Part shown: positions 10,055 to 16,379 of the stretch, in pieces
Layout of the letters: every line of letters begins with the position of its first letter
Numbering within the stretch: the first letter of the stretch is position 1
Assembly: GCF_003790525.1 (NCBI RefSeq)
Contig: NZ_CP033635.1
Reading direction: 5' to 3' (one strand)
DNA length: 64,000 nucleotides
Source: Escherichia coli
Lineage (GTDB): Bacteria; Pseudomonadota; Gammaproteobacteria; Enterobacterales; Enterobacteriaceae
Translations under genes and position numbers: made by a program
The notes under the pieces: model-generated
The model's database searches: none
What the model saw: only the letters and a program-made list of their open reading frames with translations
Told to the model about the DNA's origin: nothing

Positions 10055-10351
10055 AAGATGAAAAAAATGTTGTTTTCTGCCGCTCTGGCAATGCTTATTA
10101 CAGGATGTGCTCAACAGACGTTTACTGTTGGAAACAAACCTACAGCCGTAACACCAAAGGAAACCATCACCCATCATTTCTTCGTTTCGGGAATTGGGCA
10201 GAAGAAAACTGTCGATGCAGCAAAAATTTGTGGTGGTGCAGAAAATGTGGTTAAAACAGAAACCCAGCAAACATTCGTAAATGGATTGCTCGGTTTCATC
10301 ACTTTTGGCATTTATACTCCGCTGGAAGCGCGGGTGTATTGCTCAAAATAA
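10055..10351 (+). CDS. bor: Bor lipoprotein (serum-resistance / Iss family)
   Basis: MKKMLFSAALAMLITGCAQQTFTVGNKPTAVTPKETITHHFFVSGIGQKKTVDAAKICGGAENVVKTETQQTFVNGLLGFITFGIYTPLEARVYC matches lambda Bor as recalled, including lipobox LITGC; opposite strand to the lysis genes as in lambda. Confidence 0.9.
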   Translation, partial: KMKKMLFSAALAMLITGCAQQTFTVGNKPTAVTPKETITHHFFVSGIGQKKTVDAAKICGGAENVVKTETQQTFVNGLLGFITFGIYTPLEARVYCSK

Positions 10352-11497: not shown

Positions 11498-11875
11498 ATG
11501 AACAGTAAAGAAAATTTGCGCAGTAGATTTTTGCAACTAATGACAGAAAAAGTTAAATCAGCGCTACTTCCACTTATGGTGGATAATAACGAAGCAACGA
11601 GCAGCATCCTTGCAGACCCTTACGGTAAACTCTCGCATAAAACGCTGGATATTATTATGAGTGCATTAACACCCCGTATGCTTCAACACCTGAAACAAGA
11701 TATTAACGCATGGGTGAATGAAGAATTGAGCCCCCCCTGTTCATGGGACAGACATTATGCATGGCAGCAAAAAATGAGGATTTTCAATTCATTATCACTA
11801 AAGTTCAGAGAACCGAAACAGCGTCCCTTCCCTCTGGAATCAGATAAAAAACAACCTGATCCCACAGGCCCGTAA
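11498..11875 (+). CDS. Hypothetical protein (possible moron between holin and endolysin, opposite strand)
   Basis: 125 aa ORF starting at ATG with upstream purine-rich sequence; no recognisable family. Confidence 0.3.
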   Translation: MNSKENLRSRFLQLMTEKVKSALLPLMVDNNEATSSILADPYGKLSHKTLDIIMSALTPRMLQHLKQDINAWVNEELSPPCSWDRHYAWQQKMRIFNSLSLKFREPKQRPFPLESDKKQPDPTGP

Positions 11876-12031: not shown

Positions 12032-12304
12032 TCATATTTCTTTTGGTGCCTTTTTCGCAATCTCAGCCACAGCATGTGCCGTAGCCGGAACATTACCGGC
12101 ATTAGTTCGTTCCAGAATTTCGAGCAATATGCGGGTTCGTTTTTCCTGCTCCCGTTTGTTAAGGCGATAAGTAAGAACGCCAAGAATGATACTGAACGCC
12201 ACGCCGATAATAAATCCCCAATCCTGCAGTGACAGGCTGGCAAAGAACGCAACAAGTCCTGCGCTGCCGTATGCAGCGTTACTGTATCGTTCGTCCATTC
12301 TCAT
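12032..12304 (-). CDS. Putative holin (two predicted TM helices)
   Basis: 90 aa; hydrophobic stretches GSAGLVAFFASLSL and GFIIGVAFSIILGVLTY followed by charged tail KREQEKRTR; sits upstream of the endolysin in the late operon. Not lambda-S-like; assignment by position and topology. Confidence 0.4.
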   Translation of the reverse strand: MRMDERYSNAAYGSAGLVAFFASLSLQDWGFIIGVAFSIILGVLTYRLNKREQEKRTRILLEILERTNAGNVPATAHAVAEIAKKAPKEI

Positions 12305-12643
12305 AGTCCCTCACCTCCGCCATCCGACATTACGGACGGCAGCAAGTCAGAATCTCGTTATAAAAAAGCCGCACGAAGAGGCTGTTTGTTCAGGTATTTT
12401 ATCCAGTGCGCCGTAAAACCCCGACCTTCAGGGTGTGGAGGATGTCAACATCAATAACTGACATTCTGCCCAAAGCTCCCGAAGATTCCCTTTGCACAAT
12501 TTCACTGACCGGATCTCAGCACAAGCCACAGGGAATGGTCAGTGTGACGCTCTCTGTGGCCCCTCCTGAAAAGCCCTGTGGTTTAATCGCGACGGACCTG
12601 GCGCGGATATGAAGCAGGCCGTGAGCACGAGCCTGGAAATTTA

Positions 12644-12719
12644 GTGCCGACTACCGGAATTGAAGTGGTGGCCTGATGGTTACAACTAAACTGTTCTGCC
12701 GACTGAGGTAAGTCGGCGC
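12644..12719 (-). ncRNA. tRNA-like element / possible degenerate third phage tRNA
   Basis: Abuts the two tRNAs; perfect 7-bp terminal complementarity (GCCGACT ... AGTCGGC) and a D-loop-like AGTCGG, but I could not fold a convincing cloverleaf or anticodon arm and there is no encoded CCA. Confidence 0.25.
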
Positions 12720-12796
12720 TGGACCGCCACCGGGGACTCGAACCCCGCACAGTCAGCTTAGAAGGCTGATGCTCTCTCCTGATGAGCTAGTAGCGG
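12720..12796 (-). tRNA. argN: tRNA-Arg (anticodon UCU)
   Basis: Minus-strand read CCGCTAC..CTCATCAGGAGAG..CAGCCTTCTAAGCTG..GGGGTTCGAGTCCCCGGTGGCGGTCCA: 7-bp acceptor (one G-U), anticodon loop with UCU, T-loop TTCGAGT, encoded CCA. Confidence 0.8.
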
Positions 12797-12797
12797 T

Positions 12798-12873
12798 TGG
12801 TGGCCCTTGCTGAATTTGAACCAGCGCCCTTGCGATTATGAGTCGCTCGCTCTCACCACTGAGCTAAAGGGCC
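12798..12873 (-). tRNA. ileZ: tRNA with CAU anticodon (Ile2-lysidine type or Met)
   Basis: Minus-strand read GGCCCTTTAGCTCAGTGGTGAGAGCGAGCGACTCATAATCGCAAGGGCGCTGGTTCAAATTCAGCAAGGGCCACCA: canonical cloverleaf, anticodon CAT, encoded CCA; resembles the ileX/ileY-type tRNA carried by lambdoid phages. Confidence 0.8.
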
Positions 12874-13327
12874 TCGAGCAGCATAATAACGTTACGGGAT
12901 TAATACCGCAAATCTCAGAGAAAGCCCGACAAACCCAACTAAGCGCACCTCTTATCTGGTCCGCCAAAGAGCTTAATGTCCGGTGCAGATTTTCGATGTA
13001 AAAAACCGCCTGGCTGCGGGTTTAAGTTGTGTGGCGTAGGAACCACTCTTACCATGATATGCATACTTTTACGATCGTAAAGTGTTTGTTCATACCCTGC
13101 ATGCTGCATGATTCACCCCACATACAATCTCTGGATTGTTGCGACGCTTGGCAAGATGTAATTAAAGATTATGCATTCTTCTATGCACGTATTTTTCTTC
13201 AAAAGCAATGTCTTTATTAAGGTTATATAAATAACTCATAACCCCAAATAATTAAATATATTTAGCACTTCTAATAAAAAAGATTGATCTTAATTTTTTG
13301 AGTGAAAGATAGCCATCTATTTATTAG

Positions 13328-14523
<1,196 letters not shown>

Positions 14524-14671: not shown

Positions 14672-15778
14672 ATGAAAAATTTAACAGTGGCACTTTCTGC
14701 TGTAGCAGCATCAGTATTTCTGGCAACGTCTTCAAATGCAGCAGAAATATACAATAAAGATGCAAACAAAGTGGATTTATACGGTAAAGCAGTTGGTTTA
14801 CATTATTTTTCTTCTGATAAGGACCAAAACGGAGATCAGACTTACGCACGCCTTGGATTCAGAGGTGAAACCCAAATAAATAATTATATTACTGGTTTTG
14901 GTCAGTGGGAATATAATTTCCAGGGGAACAACCCTGAAGGGGATGGAGCTCAAACTGGAAACAAGACTCGCCTGGCATACGCTGGTCTGAAGCTTGCAGA
15001 TGCTGGCTCTCTTGACTATGGTCGTAACTACGGCGTGGTGTACGACGCATTAAGCTACACTGACGTCTTCCCGGAGTTTGGACCTACCACAGCGCAAAAG
15101 GATAACTTCTTCGTTGGTCGTGTAGGCGGTGTTGCCACATACCGCAACACTGACTTTTTTGGACTGGTCGATGGGCTTAGCTTTGCAATTCAGTATCTGG
15201 GAAAAAATGAACGCAAGGATAAACCAGATACTTCAAACGGAGAGGGTGTAGGTGGCTCTGTCAGCTATGAATATGAAGGATTTGGTTTTGTCGCAGCATA
15301 CGGCGCTGCTGATCGTACTAAAAATCAGAAAAAGGCTGAGCTTGGTAAAGGGAAAAAAGCTGAACAGTGGGCCACCGGGGTAAAATATGACGCAAATAAT
15401 CTGTACCTGGCTGCCAGTTATGGTGAAACAAATAATACCCGTGCAATATCGTATGGTGATAATATTTCAGGAGTGGCGAATAAAACCGAAGATTTCACTG
15501 TTGTGGCACAATACCAGTTCGACTTTGGATTACGCCCGTCTCTTGCTTATACCCACTCTAAAGCAAAAAACCTTTCATCCAGTACTGATATTAGTAAAAA
15601 ACATGATGACGGATATATTGAAAAATTCGTTGAAGTAGGGGCTTCTTATTACTTCAACAAAAATATGTCTACATACATAGATTACAAAATCAATATGCTC
15701 GATAAAAATAAATTCACTGAAAGAACAGGAGTATCAACCGACGATATTGTCGCTGTTGGTCTGGTTTATCAGTTCTGA
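14672..15778 (+). CDS. Outer-membrane general porin, prophage-encoded (NmpC/Lc/OmpC family)
   Basis: 368 aa; signal peptide then AEIYNKD.NK.DLYGK...; [10 protein letters not shown]; [12 protein letters not shown]; [15 protein letters not shown]; C-terminal [12 protein letters not shown]; typical 16-strand porin signature, closest by memory to the DLP12 nmpC product. Confidence 0.9.
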
Positions 15779-15956: not shown

Positions 15957-16379
15957 TTATATCCCTGCCCTGGAGGACACAGTTTTACGACGTATCGAAT
16001 AATTTGTGCTCACATATCGATCCATCTCAAGGCGAACATCCAGCATCATCAACATACCATCAACCACTCCTTCAGCTTTTTGCAAACGCTTTCCAATATG
16101 CGTATCCGAACATCCATGTTTCCTTGCTAACTTCATGAACGTCATCCCATATACGTAGTAATCAACCAGCATGTCATGCATATCGGCGTTGTTCTTTTTC
16201 AGGCGAGCCATACAACCACATATAATCATCGCGTCATCATCGGAACACTGCGATCGCGATTTTACTTTTGACGGTATCAGCCCCTTAAATCCGGCGGCAA
16301 TGCCTGACCATTCCACGTCTTCATGATTATTTGCGACCCATGCCCCCCAACGTTCAAGAACCATCTGAATATCACGCAT
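15957..16379 (-). CDS. Late-gene antiterminator Q (DLP12 QuuD/YbcQ type)
   Basis: 140 aa [64 protein letters not shown]..., resembles the DLP12 prophage Q-like antiterminator as recalled; located upstream of the lysis cassette. Confidence 0.7.

What the first reader, a model, noticed from the sequence alone, without database searches (positions are those of the whole stretch)
12305..12900. Phage tRNA cluster at the position where Stx phages carry stx, but no toxin genes present
Two confident tRNA genes (CAU and Arg-UCU) plus a tRNA-like third element sit between Q and the lysis cassette, the arrangement reported (ileZ-argN-argO) immediately upstream of stxAB in Stx-converting phages. Here only about 340 bp separate the tRNA cluster from the putative holin and nothing resembling an A- or B-subunit ORF is present. 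This looks like an stx-negative relative or an empty toxin-moron locus.
Basis: partly seen in the sequence, partly recalled or inferred. Interest (0 to 1): 0.45.

Follow-up and report, generated by a model that had tools for sequence, protein, structure and literature searches.

The report
Prophage tRNA genes at stx-free site
This is an ordinary lambda-like E. coli prophage that carries two working-looking tRNA genes and one decayed tRNA copy just after its late promoter, at the spot where Shiga-toxin phages hold their toxin genes, and it has no trace of toxin genes.

Summary
On the minus strand lie tRNA-CAU (12873-12798, an ileX/ileZ-type tRNA-Ile2) and tRNA-Arg(UCU) (12796-12720). A third tRNA-like element follows at 12717-12642, 339 bp before a holin-like gene. 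The third element is not argO. It is colinear with host thrU (tRNA-Thr UGU) but has 15 substitutions, keeps 14 of 21 stem pairs and scores below the tRNA threshold, so it is most likely a pseudogene.

The module is homologous to the Stx2-phage late region in several parts:
- Q, at 75% amino-acid identity
- pR'-tR'
- the annotated tRNA promoter "pT"
- ileZ and argN
- the first ~57 nt after the third tRNA, which match the argO-stxA spacer up to 26 nt before the stx2A start

There is no StxA, StxB or nanS-p remnant, and nothing on the right side is homologous. The divergence argues against a recent deletion.

Such tRNA modules are common and already described. Homologues occur in 3028 of 5426 complete E. 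coli genomes, against 602 genomes with stx2, and phage 21 has the same layout. Q itself lies 3 kb away, separated by a porin gene and an IS5.

Verdict: a new member of a known kind, of low-to-moderate interest.

The parts
15957..16379 (-). Antiterminator Q gene (140 aa), 933W/Stx2-phage type
   Evidence: Pfam Phage_antitermQ, E 1.3e-53, full length. 75% identity to the Q of Stx2a_F723.
13054..13081 (-). Late promoter pR' homologue (TTTACG-16 nt-TATCAT)
   Evidence: Promoter scan. Both hexamers and the initial transcribed sequence are identical to the pR' annotated in Stx2 phages.
13000..13019 (-). tR' homologue: hairpin CCGC-AGCCAG-GCGG followed by T6
   Evidence: Fold. Aligned to the annotated terminator after pR' in Stx2 phages.
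12883..12911 (-). Homologue of 'pT', the putative tRNA promoter (TTGCGG-17 nt-TATTAT), ending 9 nt before tRNA 1
   Evidence: The bases TTGC-G of the first hexamer, all of TATTAT and the 17-nt spacing are invariant in six diverged loci, including one whose spacer sequence differs. The same element is annotated as 'pT; putative tRNA promoter' in OP797663.1.
12798..12873 (-). tRNA with anticodon CAU, ileX/ileZ type (tRNA-Ile2, reads AUA after lysidine modification); CCA encoded
   Evidence: ARAGORN. Rfam 67.8 bits. Close to K-12 ileX and to ileZ, unlike metT, with the GGCCC acceptor start of ileX. PGAP names identical copies tRNA-Ile.
12720..12796 (-). tRNA-Arg, anticodon UCU (reads AGA/AGG); homologue of Stx-phage argN; CCA encoded
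   Evidence: ARAGORN. Rfam 54.5 bits. Clean cloverleaf as the minimum-energy fold. 66/77 identical to argN, which has anticodon UCG, and 48/77 to argO.
12642..12717 (-). Decayed copy of host thrU (tRNA-Thr UGU); probable pseudogene
   Evidence: Colinear with K-12 thrU, 15/76 substitutions, 14/21 stem pairs against 20/21 in thrU. Rfam 19.8 bits, below the threshold of 29. ARAGORN is silent.
12584..12639 (-). Homologue of the Stx2-phage argO-stxA intergenic region (terminator hairpin without its T-run, plus 28 nt of the stx2-proximal flank)
   Evidence: Smith-Waterman, 42/58 identical, z about 10 against dinucleotide shuffles for Stx2a and Stx2c phages and z 6 for P27. The post-terminator 28 nt alone is 22/28 identical, reached by 4 of 1000 shuffles.
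12450..12583 (-). Orphan non-coding stretch with local hairpins
   Evidence: No homologue in phages, or in E. coli genomes outside 19 near-identical cassettes. One IMG/VR contig holds it. No conserved ORF. No similarity to tRNAs. Fold z-score of the whole 339-nt spacer is -1.2.
12399..12448 (-). 50-nt dispersed element (TTGACATCC...GGATAA), similar to one end of an IS200/IS605-family element
   Evidence: 90-94% matches with sharp borders after tfa in HK97, in 933W L0135, on plasmids, and at the tnpA-side end of an IS200/IS605 element.
12362..12385 (-). Weak terminator-like hairpin plus U6, 58 nt before the holin start
   Evidence: Stem of about 5 pairs with one mismatch, -5.3 kcal/mol, z -0.35. 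Weak Rfam isrK match that rests on this hairpin, 16 bits against a threshold of 50.
12032..12304 (-). Holin-like gene (90 aa), first gene of the lysis cassette
   Evidence: Sub-threshold Pfam holin matches. PGAP names identical copies 'phage holin family protein'. Lysozyme, Rz and Bor genes follow.

Best explanation
This is the tRNA module of a lambda-like prophage's late operon. It has the same kind of layout as in phage 21, and its parts are homologous to those of 933W-type Stx2 phages.

Proposed mechanism:
- In lytic growth, Q loads onto RNA polymerase at pR' (13081-13054). The polymerase reads through tR' (13019-13000) and transcribes, in order, tRNA-Ile2(CAU), tRNA-Arg(UCU), the decayed thrU copy, the 339-nt spacer, and the holin, endolysin, Rz and structural genes.
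- The tRNAs are cut out of this transcript by the host enzymes RNase P and RNase E.
- A conserved sigma-70-type promoter directly upstream of tRNA 1 (pT, TTGCGG-17-TATTAT) probably also drives Q-independent expression in the lysogen.
- After lysidine modification by host TilS, the CAU tRNA reads AUA. The UCU tRNA reads AGA and AGG.
- All three codons are rare in E. coli and are 1.8-2.8 times more frequent in this prophage's genes than in the flanking chromosomal genes. The module therefore most likely tops up scarce host tRNAs.

The third element is a non-functional relic of a captured host thrU. The site corresponds to the place where Stx2 phages hold stx2AB, but it is a diverged, toxin-free relative and not a recently emptied toxin site.

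Shown: the gene content, the homologies and the codon enrichment. Inferred: transcription, processing, charging and benefit.
For: - The tRNAs are called by two methods, have canonical folds and encode CCA.
- The CAU tRNA resembles ileX and ileZ, not metT.
- The pR'-tR' homologue has identical hexamers to the Stx2-phage pR'.
- In pT, the bases TTGC-G of the first hexamer, all of TATTAT and the 17-nt spacing are invariant across six loci, although the spacer sequence diverges in strain 135. The element is annotated as a putative tRNA promoter in a 933W-derived record.
- Phage 21 has Q-pR'-tR'-tRNA-Asn-tRNA-Thr-S with no toxin. tRNAs downstream of Q are reported for SfI, Sf6, ST64T, PS3 and P21, with a codon-supply argument (PMC3636060).
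- tRNA sets between q and stx vary by Stx2 subtype (PMC7366253).
- Codon counts per 1000, prophage against flanking chromosomal genes: ATA 8.2 v 4.6 (p 0.004), AGA 7.4 v 2.8 (p 3e-5), AGG 4.7 v 1.7 (p 6e-4).
- Homologues of the tRNA pair occur in 3028 of 5426 genomes, against 602 with stx2.
- No Stx remnant is present.
Against: - The codon enrichment is carried by early and regulatory genes and the small lysis cassette. In the late structural genes it is weak: ATA odds ratio 1.28, not significant.
- A published comparison found no better codon adaptation in lambdoid phages that carry tRNAs (PMC4631060).
- The CAU tRNA has a G53-U61 wobble and the Arg tRNA a U5-G68 wobble and a U73 discriminator. 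These are departures from closer relatives or from usual identity rules.
- The terminator-like hairpin before the holin is weak.
- No expression data are available.
- In homologous cassettes slot 2 is tRNA-Lys(UUU), which cannot be explained by rare-codon supply.
Confidence: 0.72

Rival explanations
1. Counter-defence module. The phage tRNAs exist mainly to replace host tRNAs destroyed by anticodon-arm nucleases of competing elements (P2 Old, PARIS AriB, PrrC, retron effectors). Slots are swapped to match the nucleases met. The third element is a thrU derivative selected to lose the nuclease's cleavage motif.
For: - P2 Old cleaves thrU at paired CNG motifs (positions 28-30 and 40-42) in the anticodon stem. 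Phage tRNA-Thr(UGU), including phage 21's, rescues by altering the motif and shortening the stem (PMC12445682).
- In the third element, 6 of the 15 substitutions fall in the 10 anticodon-stem positions (p 0.003) and remove both CNG motifs. The acceptor stem is untouched (p 0.03), and the UGU anticodon, U33 and A37 are kept.
- Slot 2 switches among Arg-UCG, Arg-UCU and Lys-UUU through a roughly 50-nt patch inside otherwise identical cassettes.
- Lys-UUU is the PARIS target, and phage tRNA-Lys rescues (PMC11464382 and PMC12445682).
Against: - The third element also lost G10-C25, C11-G24 and the near-universal G53-C61 pair, and its CCA. It keeps only 2 of 5 anticodon-stem pairs and is not recognised as a tRNA.
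- The window's own tRNA-Arg keeps paired CAG/CUG motifs and A37, so it shows no nuclease-escape signature.
- The related AR_0089 prophage carries exact copies of thrU and glyT, not resistant variants.
- No intermediates exist, so covariation cannot be tested.
Confidence: 0.12
2. Emptied toxin site. The prophage descends from a Stx2 phage that lost stx2AB by deletion, and the spacer is the scar.
For: - Homology to the stx2-proximal flank runs to 26 nt before the stx2A ATG.
- At BLAST-detectable identity that flank occurs only in stx2 carriers: 599 against 602 genomes.
- An stx-negative Stx2-like prophage (FDAARGOS_536) lacks the 28 nt that the window retains.
Against: - No StxA, StxB or nanS-p remnant at protein or DNA level.
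- The right side of the spacer and the holin are unrelated to anything between stxB and S in Stx2a or P27 phages (z 0.5 and 2.0).
- The shared parts are only 72-86% identical, so any common ancestor is old.
- Slots 2 and 3 differ from every Stx2 array examined.
- The head genes are lambda/phage 21-like at about 95%.
Confidence: 0.06
3. Decaying hitch-hiker. The whole cluster is a neutral relic of mosaic recombination, no longer contributes to translation, and is kept only because it lies between essential late-operon signals.
For: - One of three slots is already dead here.
- In an even sample of related arrays, 9 of 40 have no callable second tRNA.
- P27 carries an argN remnant with a disrupted anticodon arm.
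- GF60's Lys copy has a weakened T stem.
- The window's copies have wobble substitutions at conserved pairs.
Against: - tRNA 1 is conserved at 95% or more with ileZ across very diverged phages, together with its promoter hexamers.
- Both tRNAs keep full cloverleaves and CCA.
- The module is retained in more than half of E. coli genomes, often in several prophages per genome.
Confidence: 0.1

Closest known systems
Late-region tRNA module of 933W-type Stx2 phages (pR'-tR'-pT-ileZ-argN-argO-terminator-stx2AB)
   Same: - Q of the same type (75% amino-acid identity).
- pR' hexamers and tR' are homologous.
- pT has the same hexamers and spacing.
- Slot 1 is ileZ-like (CAU) and slot 2 is an argN homologue (66/77).
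- The trailer after slot 3 is homologous up to 26 nt before the stx2A ATG.
   Different: - No stx2AB, iraM or nanS-p.
- The slot 2 anticodon is UCU, not UCG.
- Slot 3 is a decayed thrU copy, not argO.
- The terminator after slot 3 has lost its T-run.
- The holin is a different one.
- A porin gene and an IS5 sit between Q and pR'.
- The structural genes are lambda/phage 21-like, not 933W-like.
Phage 21 late region (Q-pR'-QBE-tR'-tRNA-Asn-tRNA-Thr(UGU)-S21-R-Rz-bor)
   Same: It has the same architecture: tRNAs directly after tR' and before the holin, no toxin, and bor downstream. The head genes are about 95% identical to the window's.
   Different: The Q type, pR' and tRNA set (Asn, Thr) all differ. 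Its tRNA-Thr is intact and has been shown experimentally to protect against P2 Old (PMC12445682), whereas the window's Thr-derived element is degenerate.
Stx-negative Stx2-like prophage of E. coli FDAARGOS_536 (methylase-ileZ-argN-argO-iraM-nanS-p-S)
   Same: It carries a tRNA module in the late region without stx.
   Different: That prophage keeps the Stx2 right flank (iraM, nanS-p, class II holin) and loses homology right after the terminator. The window keeps 28 nt more of the stx2-proximal left flank but none of the right flank.
Stx2e phage phiP27 (ileZ-gap-argO-stx2e)
   Same: Two callable tRNAs plus one decayed member in the same array. The trailer after the last tRNA is homologous (z 6).
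   Different: The decayed member is argN in slot 2, not slot 3. stx2e is present.
AR_0089-type E. coli prophage array (Ile-CAU, Lys-UUU, Thr-UGU, Gly-UCC before a class II holin)
   Same: The same pT, slot 1 and slot 2 backbone, with a thrU-type tRNA in slot 3.
   Different: Slot 2 is Lys-UUU. Slot 3 is an exact copy of thrU and is followed by an exact copy of glyT. The spacer and holin differ.

Membership tests
Lambdoid late-operon tRNA module (933W / phage 21 kind) | tRNA genes located after Q, pR' and tR' and before the holin, on the late-operon strand | tested here: met
   The order on the minus strand is Q 16379-15957, pR' 13081-13054, tR' 13019-13000, tRNAs 12873-12720, holin 12304-12032.
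Lambdoid late-operon tRNA module (933W / phage 21 kind) | Own promoter pT directly upstream of the first tRNA | tested here: met
   TTGCGG-17-TATTAT at 12911-12883. The bases TTGC-G of the first hexamer, all of TATTAT and the spacing are invariant in six loci, and the element equals the annotated pT of OP797663.1. Promoter activity was not tested.
Lambdoid late-operon tRNA module (933W / phage 21 kind) | The tRNAs are expressed, processed and charged | not testable with these tools
   Sequence only.
ileZ-argN-argO triplet of Stx2a/c/d phages | Slot 1: tRNA with anticodon CAU of ileX type | tested here: met
   The anticodon is CAT. The tRNA aligns closely to ileZ and to K-12 ileX and shares the GGCCC acceptor start, unlike metT.
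ileZ-argN-argO triplet of Stx2a/c/d phages | Slot 2: argN with anticodon UCG | tested here: not met
   It is homologous (66/77), but its anticodon is UCU.
ileZ-argN-argO triplet of Stx2a/c/d phages | Slot 3: argO, tRNA-Arg(UCU) | tested here: not met
   The third element is 48/79 identical to argO but 61/76 to thrU. It has a UGU triplet at the anticodon position and is not callable as a tRNA.
Stx-converting phage toxin locus | stxA and stxB open reading frames | tested here: not met
   tblastn with Stx2A and Stx2B against the window gives a best E of 0.55, with hits scattered and none in the region.
Stx-converting phage toxin locus | Left flank homologous to the argO-stxA spacer | tested here: met
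   12639-12584 aligns with 42/58 identical, z about 10. The post-terminator 28 nt is 22/28 identical, reached by 4 of 1000 shuffles.
Stx-converting phage toxin locus | Right flank homologous to the stxB-to-S interval | tested here: not met
   z 0.5 for Stx2a and z 2.0 for P27. No blastn hit.
tRNA (Rfam RF00005), for the third element | Score at or above the gathering threshold and an intact cloverleaf | tested here: not met
   19.8 bits against a threshold of 29. 14 of 21 stem pairs: D stem 2/4, anticodon stem 2/5, T stem 3/5. No CCA. ARAGORN is silent.
tRNA-Ile2 (lysidine-modified CAU tRNA) | CAU anticodon with ileX-like acceptor pairs C4-G69 and C5-G68. That these pairs are TilS determinants rests on my own knowledge of the literature. 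| tested here: met
   The acceptor is GGCCCUU/AAGGGCC, as in ileX. The k2C34 modification itself cannot be tested here.
Nuclease-resistant 'rescue' phage tRNAs (P2 Old, PARIS) | Same anticodon as the targeted host tRNA, altered cleavage motif, and still a functional tRNA | tested here: inconclusive
   The third element keeps UGU and has lost both CNG motifs, but it has also lost core tRNA pairs. The window's tRNA-Arg keeps paired CNG motifs. Function cannot be tested here.

The most novel reading that the evidence does not exclude
The third element may not be a dead gene. It could be a thrU-derived RNA whose anticodon stem was reshaped under selection, so that it escapes or soaks up anticodon-arm nucleases such as P2 Old. 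Six of its 15 changes fall in the anticodon stem and both CNG cleavage motifs are gone, while the acceptor stem and the UGU triplet are untouched. More broadly, the three slots after pT would act as exchangeable cassettes: Arg-UCG, Arg-UCU or Lys-UUU in slot 2, and Arg-UCU, Thr-UGU or this variant in slot 3. Short gene-conversion patches would swap them as prophages adapt to the tRNA-targeting defences of rival elements.
Probability: 0.08. Interest if true: 0.6.

Novelty: new member of a known kind. Interest (0 to 1): 0.25.

Why it matters
The value lies mainly in housekeeping and context. The result shows that a tRNA cluster after pR' is not a marker of a lost toxin. Such modules are about five times more widespread than stx2 in complete E. 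coli genomes.

The locus places the left junction of the stx2 cassette to within about 26 nt. It also gives a diverged, toxin-free counterpart of the stx2-proximal flank, which may help reconstruct how stx2 entered this site.

The side observations are cheap to test and connect to current work on phage tRNAs as counter-defence. These are:
- anticodon-arm patches that switch slot 2 between Arg and Lys
- exact host thrU and glyT copies in a related prophage
- a thrU derivative whose anticodon stem is selectively scrambled

Tried and rejected
- **Third element as argO.** Rejected: 48/79 identity to argO against 61/76 to thrU.
- **Further decayed tRNAs in the 339-nt spacer.** Local alignment against eight tRNAs on both strands gave nothing above shuffles. 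Rfam at E up to 10 gave no further tRNA. Short repeat hints were therefore dismissed.
- **A protein gene or gene remnant in the spacer.** Only ORFs of 68 aa or less are present, with no Pfam hit. The 68-aa ORF has only near-identical E. coli copies among 5.8 billion proteins.
- **A known structured RNA in the spacer.** There is only a weak isrK match (16 bits against a threshold of 50) that rests on the terminator-like hairpin. The fold z-score is -1.2.
- **Diverged copies of the spacer for a covariation test.**
  - 80 loci with holin homologues at 72-78% lack the spacer, and 70 of them have no tRNA in the up to 2.5 kb fetched on each side.
  - An exact 22-mer occurs in one IMG/VR contig.
  - Only 19 complete genomes hold the cassette.
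- **Stx remnants.** tblastn and sensitive blastn were negative. Smith-Waterman against the stxB-to-holin intervals was not significant.
- **Literature on 'ileZ/argN/argO'.** Searching the held library by those names returned nothing relevant. GenBank annotations were used instead.
- **IS5 interrupting the late operon.** Rejected: IS5 lies upstream of pR', between the porin gene and pR'.
Full report

ARAGORN finds only two tRNA genes in the whole 64-kb window, both on the minus strand: tRNA-CAU at 12798-12873 and tRNA-Arg(UCU) at 12720-12796. Rfam's tRNA model scores them 67.8 and 54.5 bits against a threshold of 29. The Arg tRNA folds into a clean cloverleaf as its minimum-energy structure, and both encode CCA.

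A third element directly follows, at 12642-12717. It reaches only 19.8 bits (E 0.14 when only 436 nt are searched) and ARAGORN does not call it. "Two confident tRNAs plus a tRNA-like third element" is therefore accurate. The holin-like ORF starts at 12304, 339 bp after the third element. No Stx subunit similarity exists anywhere in the window.

**2. Surroundings**

The prophage reads right to left and fills window 1 to about 24000. Its head genes are about 95% identical to those of lambda and phage 21. In phage orientation the local order is as follows:

| Feature | Coordinates |
|---|---|
| Q | 16379-15957 |
| Porin gene, opposite strand | 14672-15778 |
| IS5, with a TTAG target duplication | 13328-14523 |
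| pR' | 13081-13054 |
| tR' | 13019-13000 |
| Promoter-like element | 12911-12883 |
| The three tRNA slots | 12873-12642 |
| 339-nt spacer | 12641-12305 |
| Holin-like gene | 12304-12032 |
| Oppositely oriented ORF | 11498-11875 |
| Lysozyme | 11374-10841 |
| Rz | 10859-10383 |
| bor | 10055-10351 |

The IS5 is absent from the near-identical cassette of E. coli GF60. It lies upstream of pR', so it does not interrupt the late operon.

**3. Relation to Stx phages**

The comparison used a Stx2a phage (AP012533.1), whose annotation shows Q, ileZ, argN, argO, stx2A and stx2B in that order. The homologous pieces are:
- Q, at 76% nucleotide and 75% amino-acid identity.
- A 92-nt stretch covering pR' and tR', with identical -35 and -10 hexamers and initial transcribed sequence.
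- 198 nt covering the promoter-like element, ileZ and argN, at 85%.
- The endolysin, at 86%.

A 933W-derived annotation (OP797663.1) names these elements as pR', a terminator, "pT; putative tRNA promoter" and a terminator after argO. pT is TTGCAG-17-TATTAT. In six loci the bases TTGC-G of the first hexamer, all of TATTAT and the 17-nt spacing are invariant. One of those loci (strain 135) has a spacer sequence that is otherwise different, which is the pattern expected of a real promoter.

BLAST saw nothing beyond tRNA 2. Smith-Waterman alignment with dinucleotide-shuffle controls shows that the first ~57 nt after the third slot (12639-12584) are homologous to the argO-stxA spacer of Stx2a, Stx2c and Stx2e phages: 42/58 identical, z about 10, 10 and 6. 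This includes 28 nt beyond the terminator's T-run (22/28 identical, reached by 4 of 1000 shuffles), and the match ends 26 nt before the stx2A ATG.

At BLAST-detectable identity that stx2-proximal flank is found in 599 of 5426 complete E. coli genomes. This is essentially the set that carries stx2, which numbers 602. An stx-negative Stx2-like prophage (FDAARGOS_536: methylase, ileZ, argN, argO, iraM, nanS-p, holin) loses homology right after the terminator.

The window is thus orthologous to the stx2 site on the left, to within about 26 nt. On the right nothing matches. The remaining 280 nt and the holin are unrelated to any sequence between stxB and S (z 0.5 and 2.0), and there is no toxin, iraM or nanS-p remnant. 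With shared parts only 72-86% identical, this is an old toxin-free relative, not a recently emptied site.

**4. The three slots**

*Slot 1.* This tRNA is close to K-12 ileX and to ileZ and unlike metT. It shares the GGCCC acceptor start, which gives the C4-G69 and C5-G68 pairs that I recall as TilS determinants (my own knowledge). NCBI's annotation pipeline (PGAP) names identical copies tRNA-Ile. It has a G53-U61 wobble that ileZ lacks.

*Slot 2.* This tRNA is an argN homologue (66/77), but its anticodon is UCU, whereas argN has UCG. In GF60 and AR_0089 the homologous slot is tRNA-Lys(UUU). The window and GF60 differ at 12 positions inside tRNA 2 and at only 3 positions in the other 1217 nt compared, so a short conversion patch swapped the anticodon arm. 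In an even sample of 40 related arrays, the annotation gives Arg in 24, Lys in 7 and no second tRNA in 9.

*Slot 3.* This element is colinear, without indels, with host thrU and carries 15 substitutions. AR_0089's slot 3 is an exact copy of thrU and is followed by an exact copy of glyT. The window's copy keeps 14 of 21 stem pairs against 20 of 21 in thrU. It has lost G10-C25, C11-G24, three anticodon-stem pairs, G53-C61 and the CCA. The most economical reading is a pseudogene.

Decay of array members also occurs in genuine Stx phages. The 100-nt "gap" in P27 is an argN remnant with a disrupted anticodon arm.

One oddity remains. The substitutions are not spread evenly: 6 fall in the 10 anticodon-stem positions (p 0.003) and none in the 14 acceptor positions (p 0.03). 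No intermediates exist: 19 genomes hold the variant and all others hold only thrU, at 81% identity.

**5. The spacer**

After the Stx2-flank homologue comes about 135 nt of orphan sequence. It has no ORF conserved elsewhere, no tRNA similarity, no known RNA family and no significant fold. Next is a 50-nt dispersed element (12448-12399) with sharp borders. Copies of it lie after tfa in HK97, in 933W, on plasmids, and at the tnpA-side end of an IS200/IS605 element. A weak terminator-like hairpin plus U6 follows at 12385-12362.

The cassette occurs in only 19 of 5426 complete genomes and on one IMG/VR contig.

**6. Mechanism**

The best-supported model is a late-operon tRNA module. Q-modified polymerase starting at pR' reads through tR' and transcribes the tRNAs together with the lysis genes, and pT adds Q-independent expression. 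The tRNAs decode AUA and AGA/AGG.

Counts per 1000 codons, compared with 31 chromosomal genes in the same window:

| Codon | Prophage genes | Chromosomal genes | p |
|---|---|---|---|
| ATA | 8.2 | 4.6 | 0.004 |
| AGA | 7.4 | 2.8 | 3e-5 |
| AGG | 4.7 | 1.7 | 6e-4 |

The enrichment is strongest in the early genes and the lysis cassette and weak in the head genes, so the benefit is not specific to late structural genes. The same argument has been made for tRNAs downstream of Q in SfI, Sf6, ST64T, PS3 and P21 (PMC3636060). A comparative study found no better codon adaptation in lambdoid phages that carry tRNAs (PMC4631060). Expression, processing and charging are inferred, not shown.

**7. Rivals**

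*Counter-defence.* P2 Old cuts thrU at paired CNG motifs in the anticodon stem, and phage tRNA-Thr(UGU), including phage 21's, rescues through motif changes and a shorter stem (PMC12445682). Phage tRNA-Lys rescues from PARIS (PMC11464382). This fits the Lys variants of slot 2 and the stem-focused changes in slot 3. However, the window's slot 3 has also lost core tRNA pairs, and its tRNA-Arg keeps paired CNG motifs.

*Recent loss of stx.* This is disfavoured by the divergence, the absence of remnants and the unrelated right side.

*Neutral decay of the whole module.* This is disfavoured by the strong conservation of slot 1 and of the pT hexamers.

**8. Comparison with what is known, and verdict**

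Phage 21 has the same architecture without a toxin. The parts are homologous to the 933W-type module. tRNA sets before stx are known to vary with subtype and include Thr-Gly and Met-Arg sets (PMC7366253). Homologues of the window's tRNA pair occur in 3028 of 5426 genomes, up to 12 per genome, against 602 genomes with stx2.

The finding is a correct observation of an ordinary, already described kind of element, in a rare cassette variant. The "empty toxin locus" idea is right about position and wrong about implication. Interest is low to moderate. The small residue of novelty lies in the thrU-derived third element, the slot-swapping and the toxin-free homologue of the stx2-proximal flank.

Noticed in passing
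window 13328-14523: A complete IS5 (transposase ORF 13396-14376) with a TTAG target duplication. It is inserted 144 bp upstream of the porin start codon, between the porin gene and pR'. It is absent from the otherwise near-identical GF60 cassette. It could alter porin expression and does not interrupt the late operon.
   Followed up: partly
window 14672-15778 (+): A full-length OmpC/NmpC-type porin gene (Pfam Porin_1, E 9e-126). It sits as an oppositely oriented accessory (moron) gene between Q and pR', which in Stx2 phages are directly adjacent.
   Followed up: partly
window 12720-12796, compared with L001 5525-5601 and L003 4127-4203: The slot 2 tRNA has homologous copies with anticodons UCG (Stx2 argN), UCU (the window, strain 135) and UUU, i.e. 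Lys (GF60, AR_0089). The window and GF60 differ at 12 positions inside this tRNA but at only 3 in the other 1217 nt compared, which indicates a short gene-conversion patch that changes tRNA identity. tRNA-Lys(UUU) reads common codons, so codon supply does not explain it.
   Followed up: partly
L003 4206-4359 (E. coli AR_0089 prophage): The prophage's tRNA-Thr and tRNA-Gly are exact copies of host thrU and glyT. They lie 3 nt apart, and the tyrU that separates them in the host operon is missing.
   Followed up: partly
window 12642-12717: Two D-loop substitutions (A17C, U20C) make the D loop identical to the 3' acceptor strand (AGUCGGC). This creates a 7-bp hairpin with the 5' acceptor strand that dominates the predicted fold. 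In addition, A27-U43 changed to G27-C43, the only compensated pair.
   Followed up: no
window 12399-12448: A 50-nt element (TTGACATCCTCCAC.CCCTGAAGG.CGGGGTTTTACGGCGCAC.GGATAA) with sharp conservation borders. It recurs after tfa in HK97 and HK106, at the end of 933W L0135, on many plasmids, and at the tnpA-side end of an IS200/IS605-family element next to ydcL. It may be a solo IS end or a recombination hotspot.
   Followed up: partly
L008 5235-5335 (phage phiP27): The unannotated 100-nt gap between ileZ and argO of this Stx2e phage is an argN homologue. Its acceptor, D and T arms are intact but its anticodon arm is disrupted.
   Followed up: partly
window 12798-12873: The CAU tRNA of the window and of GF60 has U61, giving a G53-U61 wobble where ileZ, ileX and strain 135 have the near-universal G53-C61. 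Position 43 also differs: A here, C in ileZ and strain 135, U in ileX.
   Followed up: no
window 11498-11875 (+): A 125-aa ORF of unknown function lies on the opposite strand between the holin-like gene and the lysozyme gene. It has no Pfam match, and the corresponding stretch is annotated as a partial pseudogene in relatives.
   Followed up: no
L005 (E. coli TUM1886, best overall match to window 1-23654): The closest whole-prophage relative (98.6% identity) has the same Q and porin genes but no annotated tRNA between the porin gene and a class II holin. The tRNA-plus-holin cassette is therefore an exchangeable mosaic block. Strain 135 carries the same cassette behind an unrelated Q gene.
   Followed up: partly
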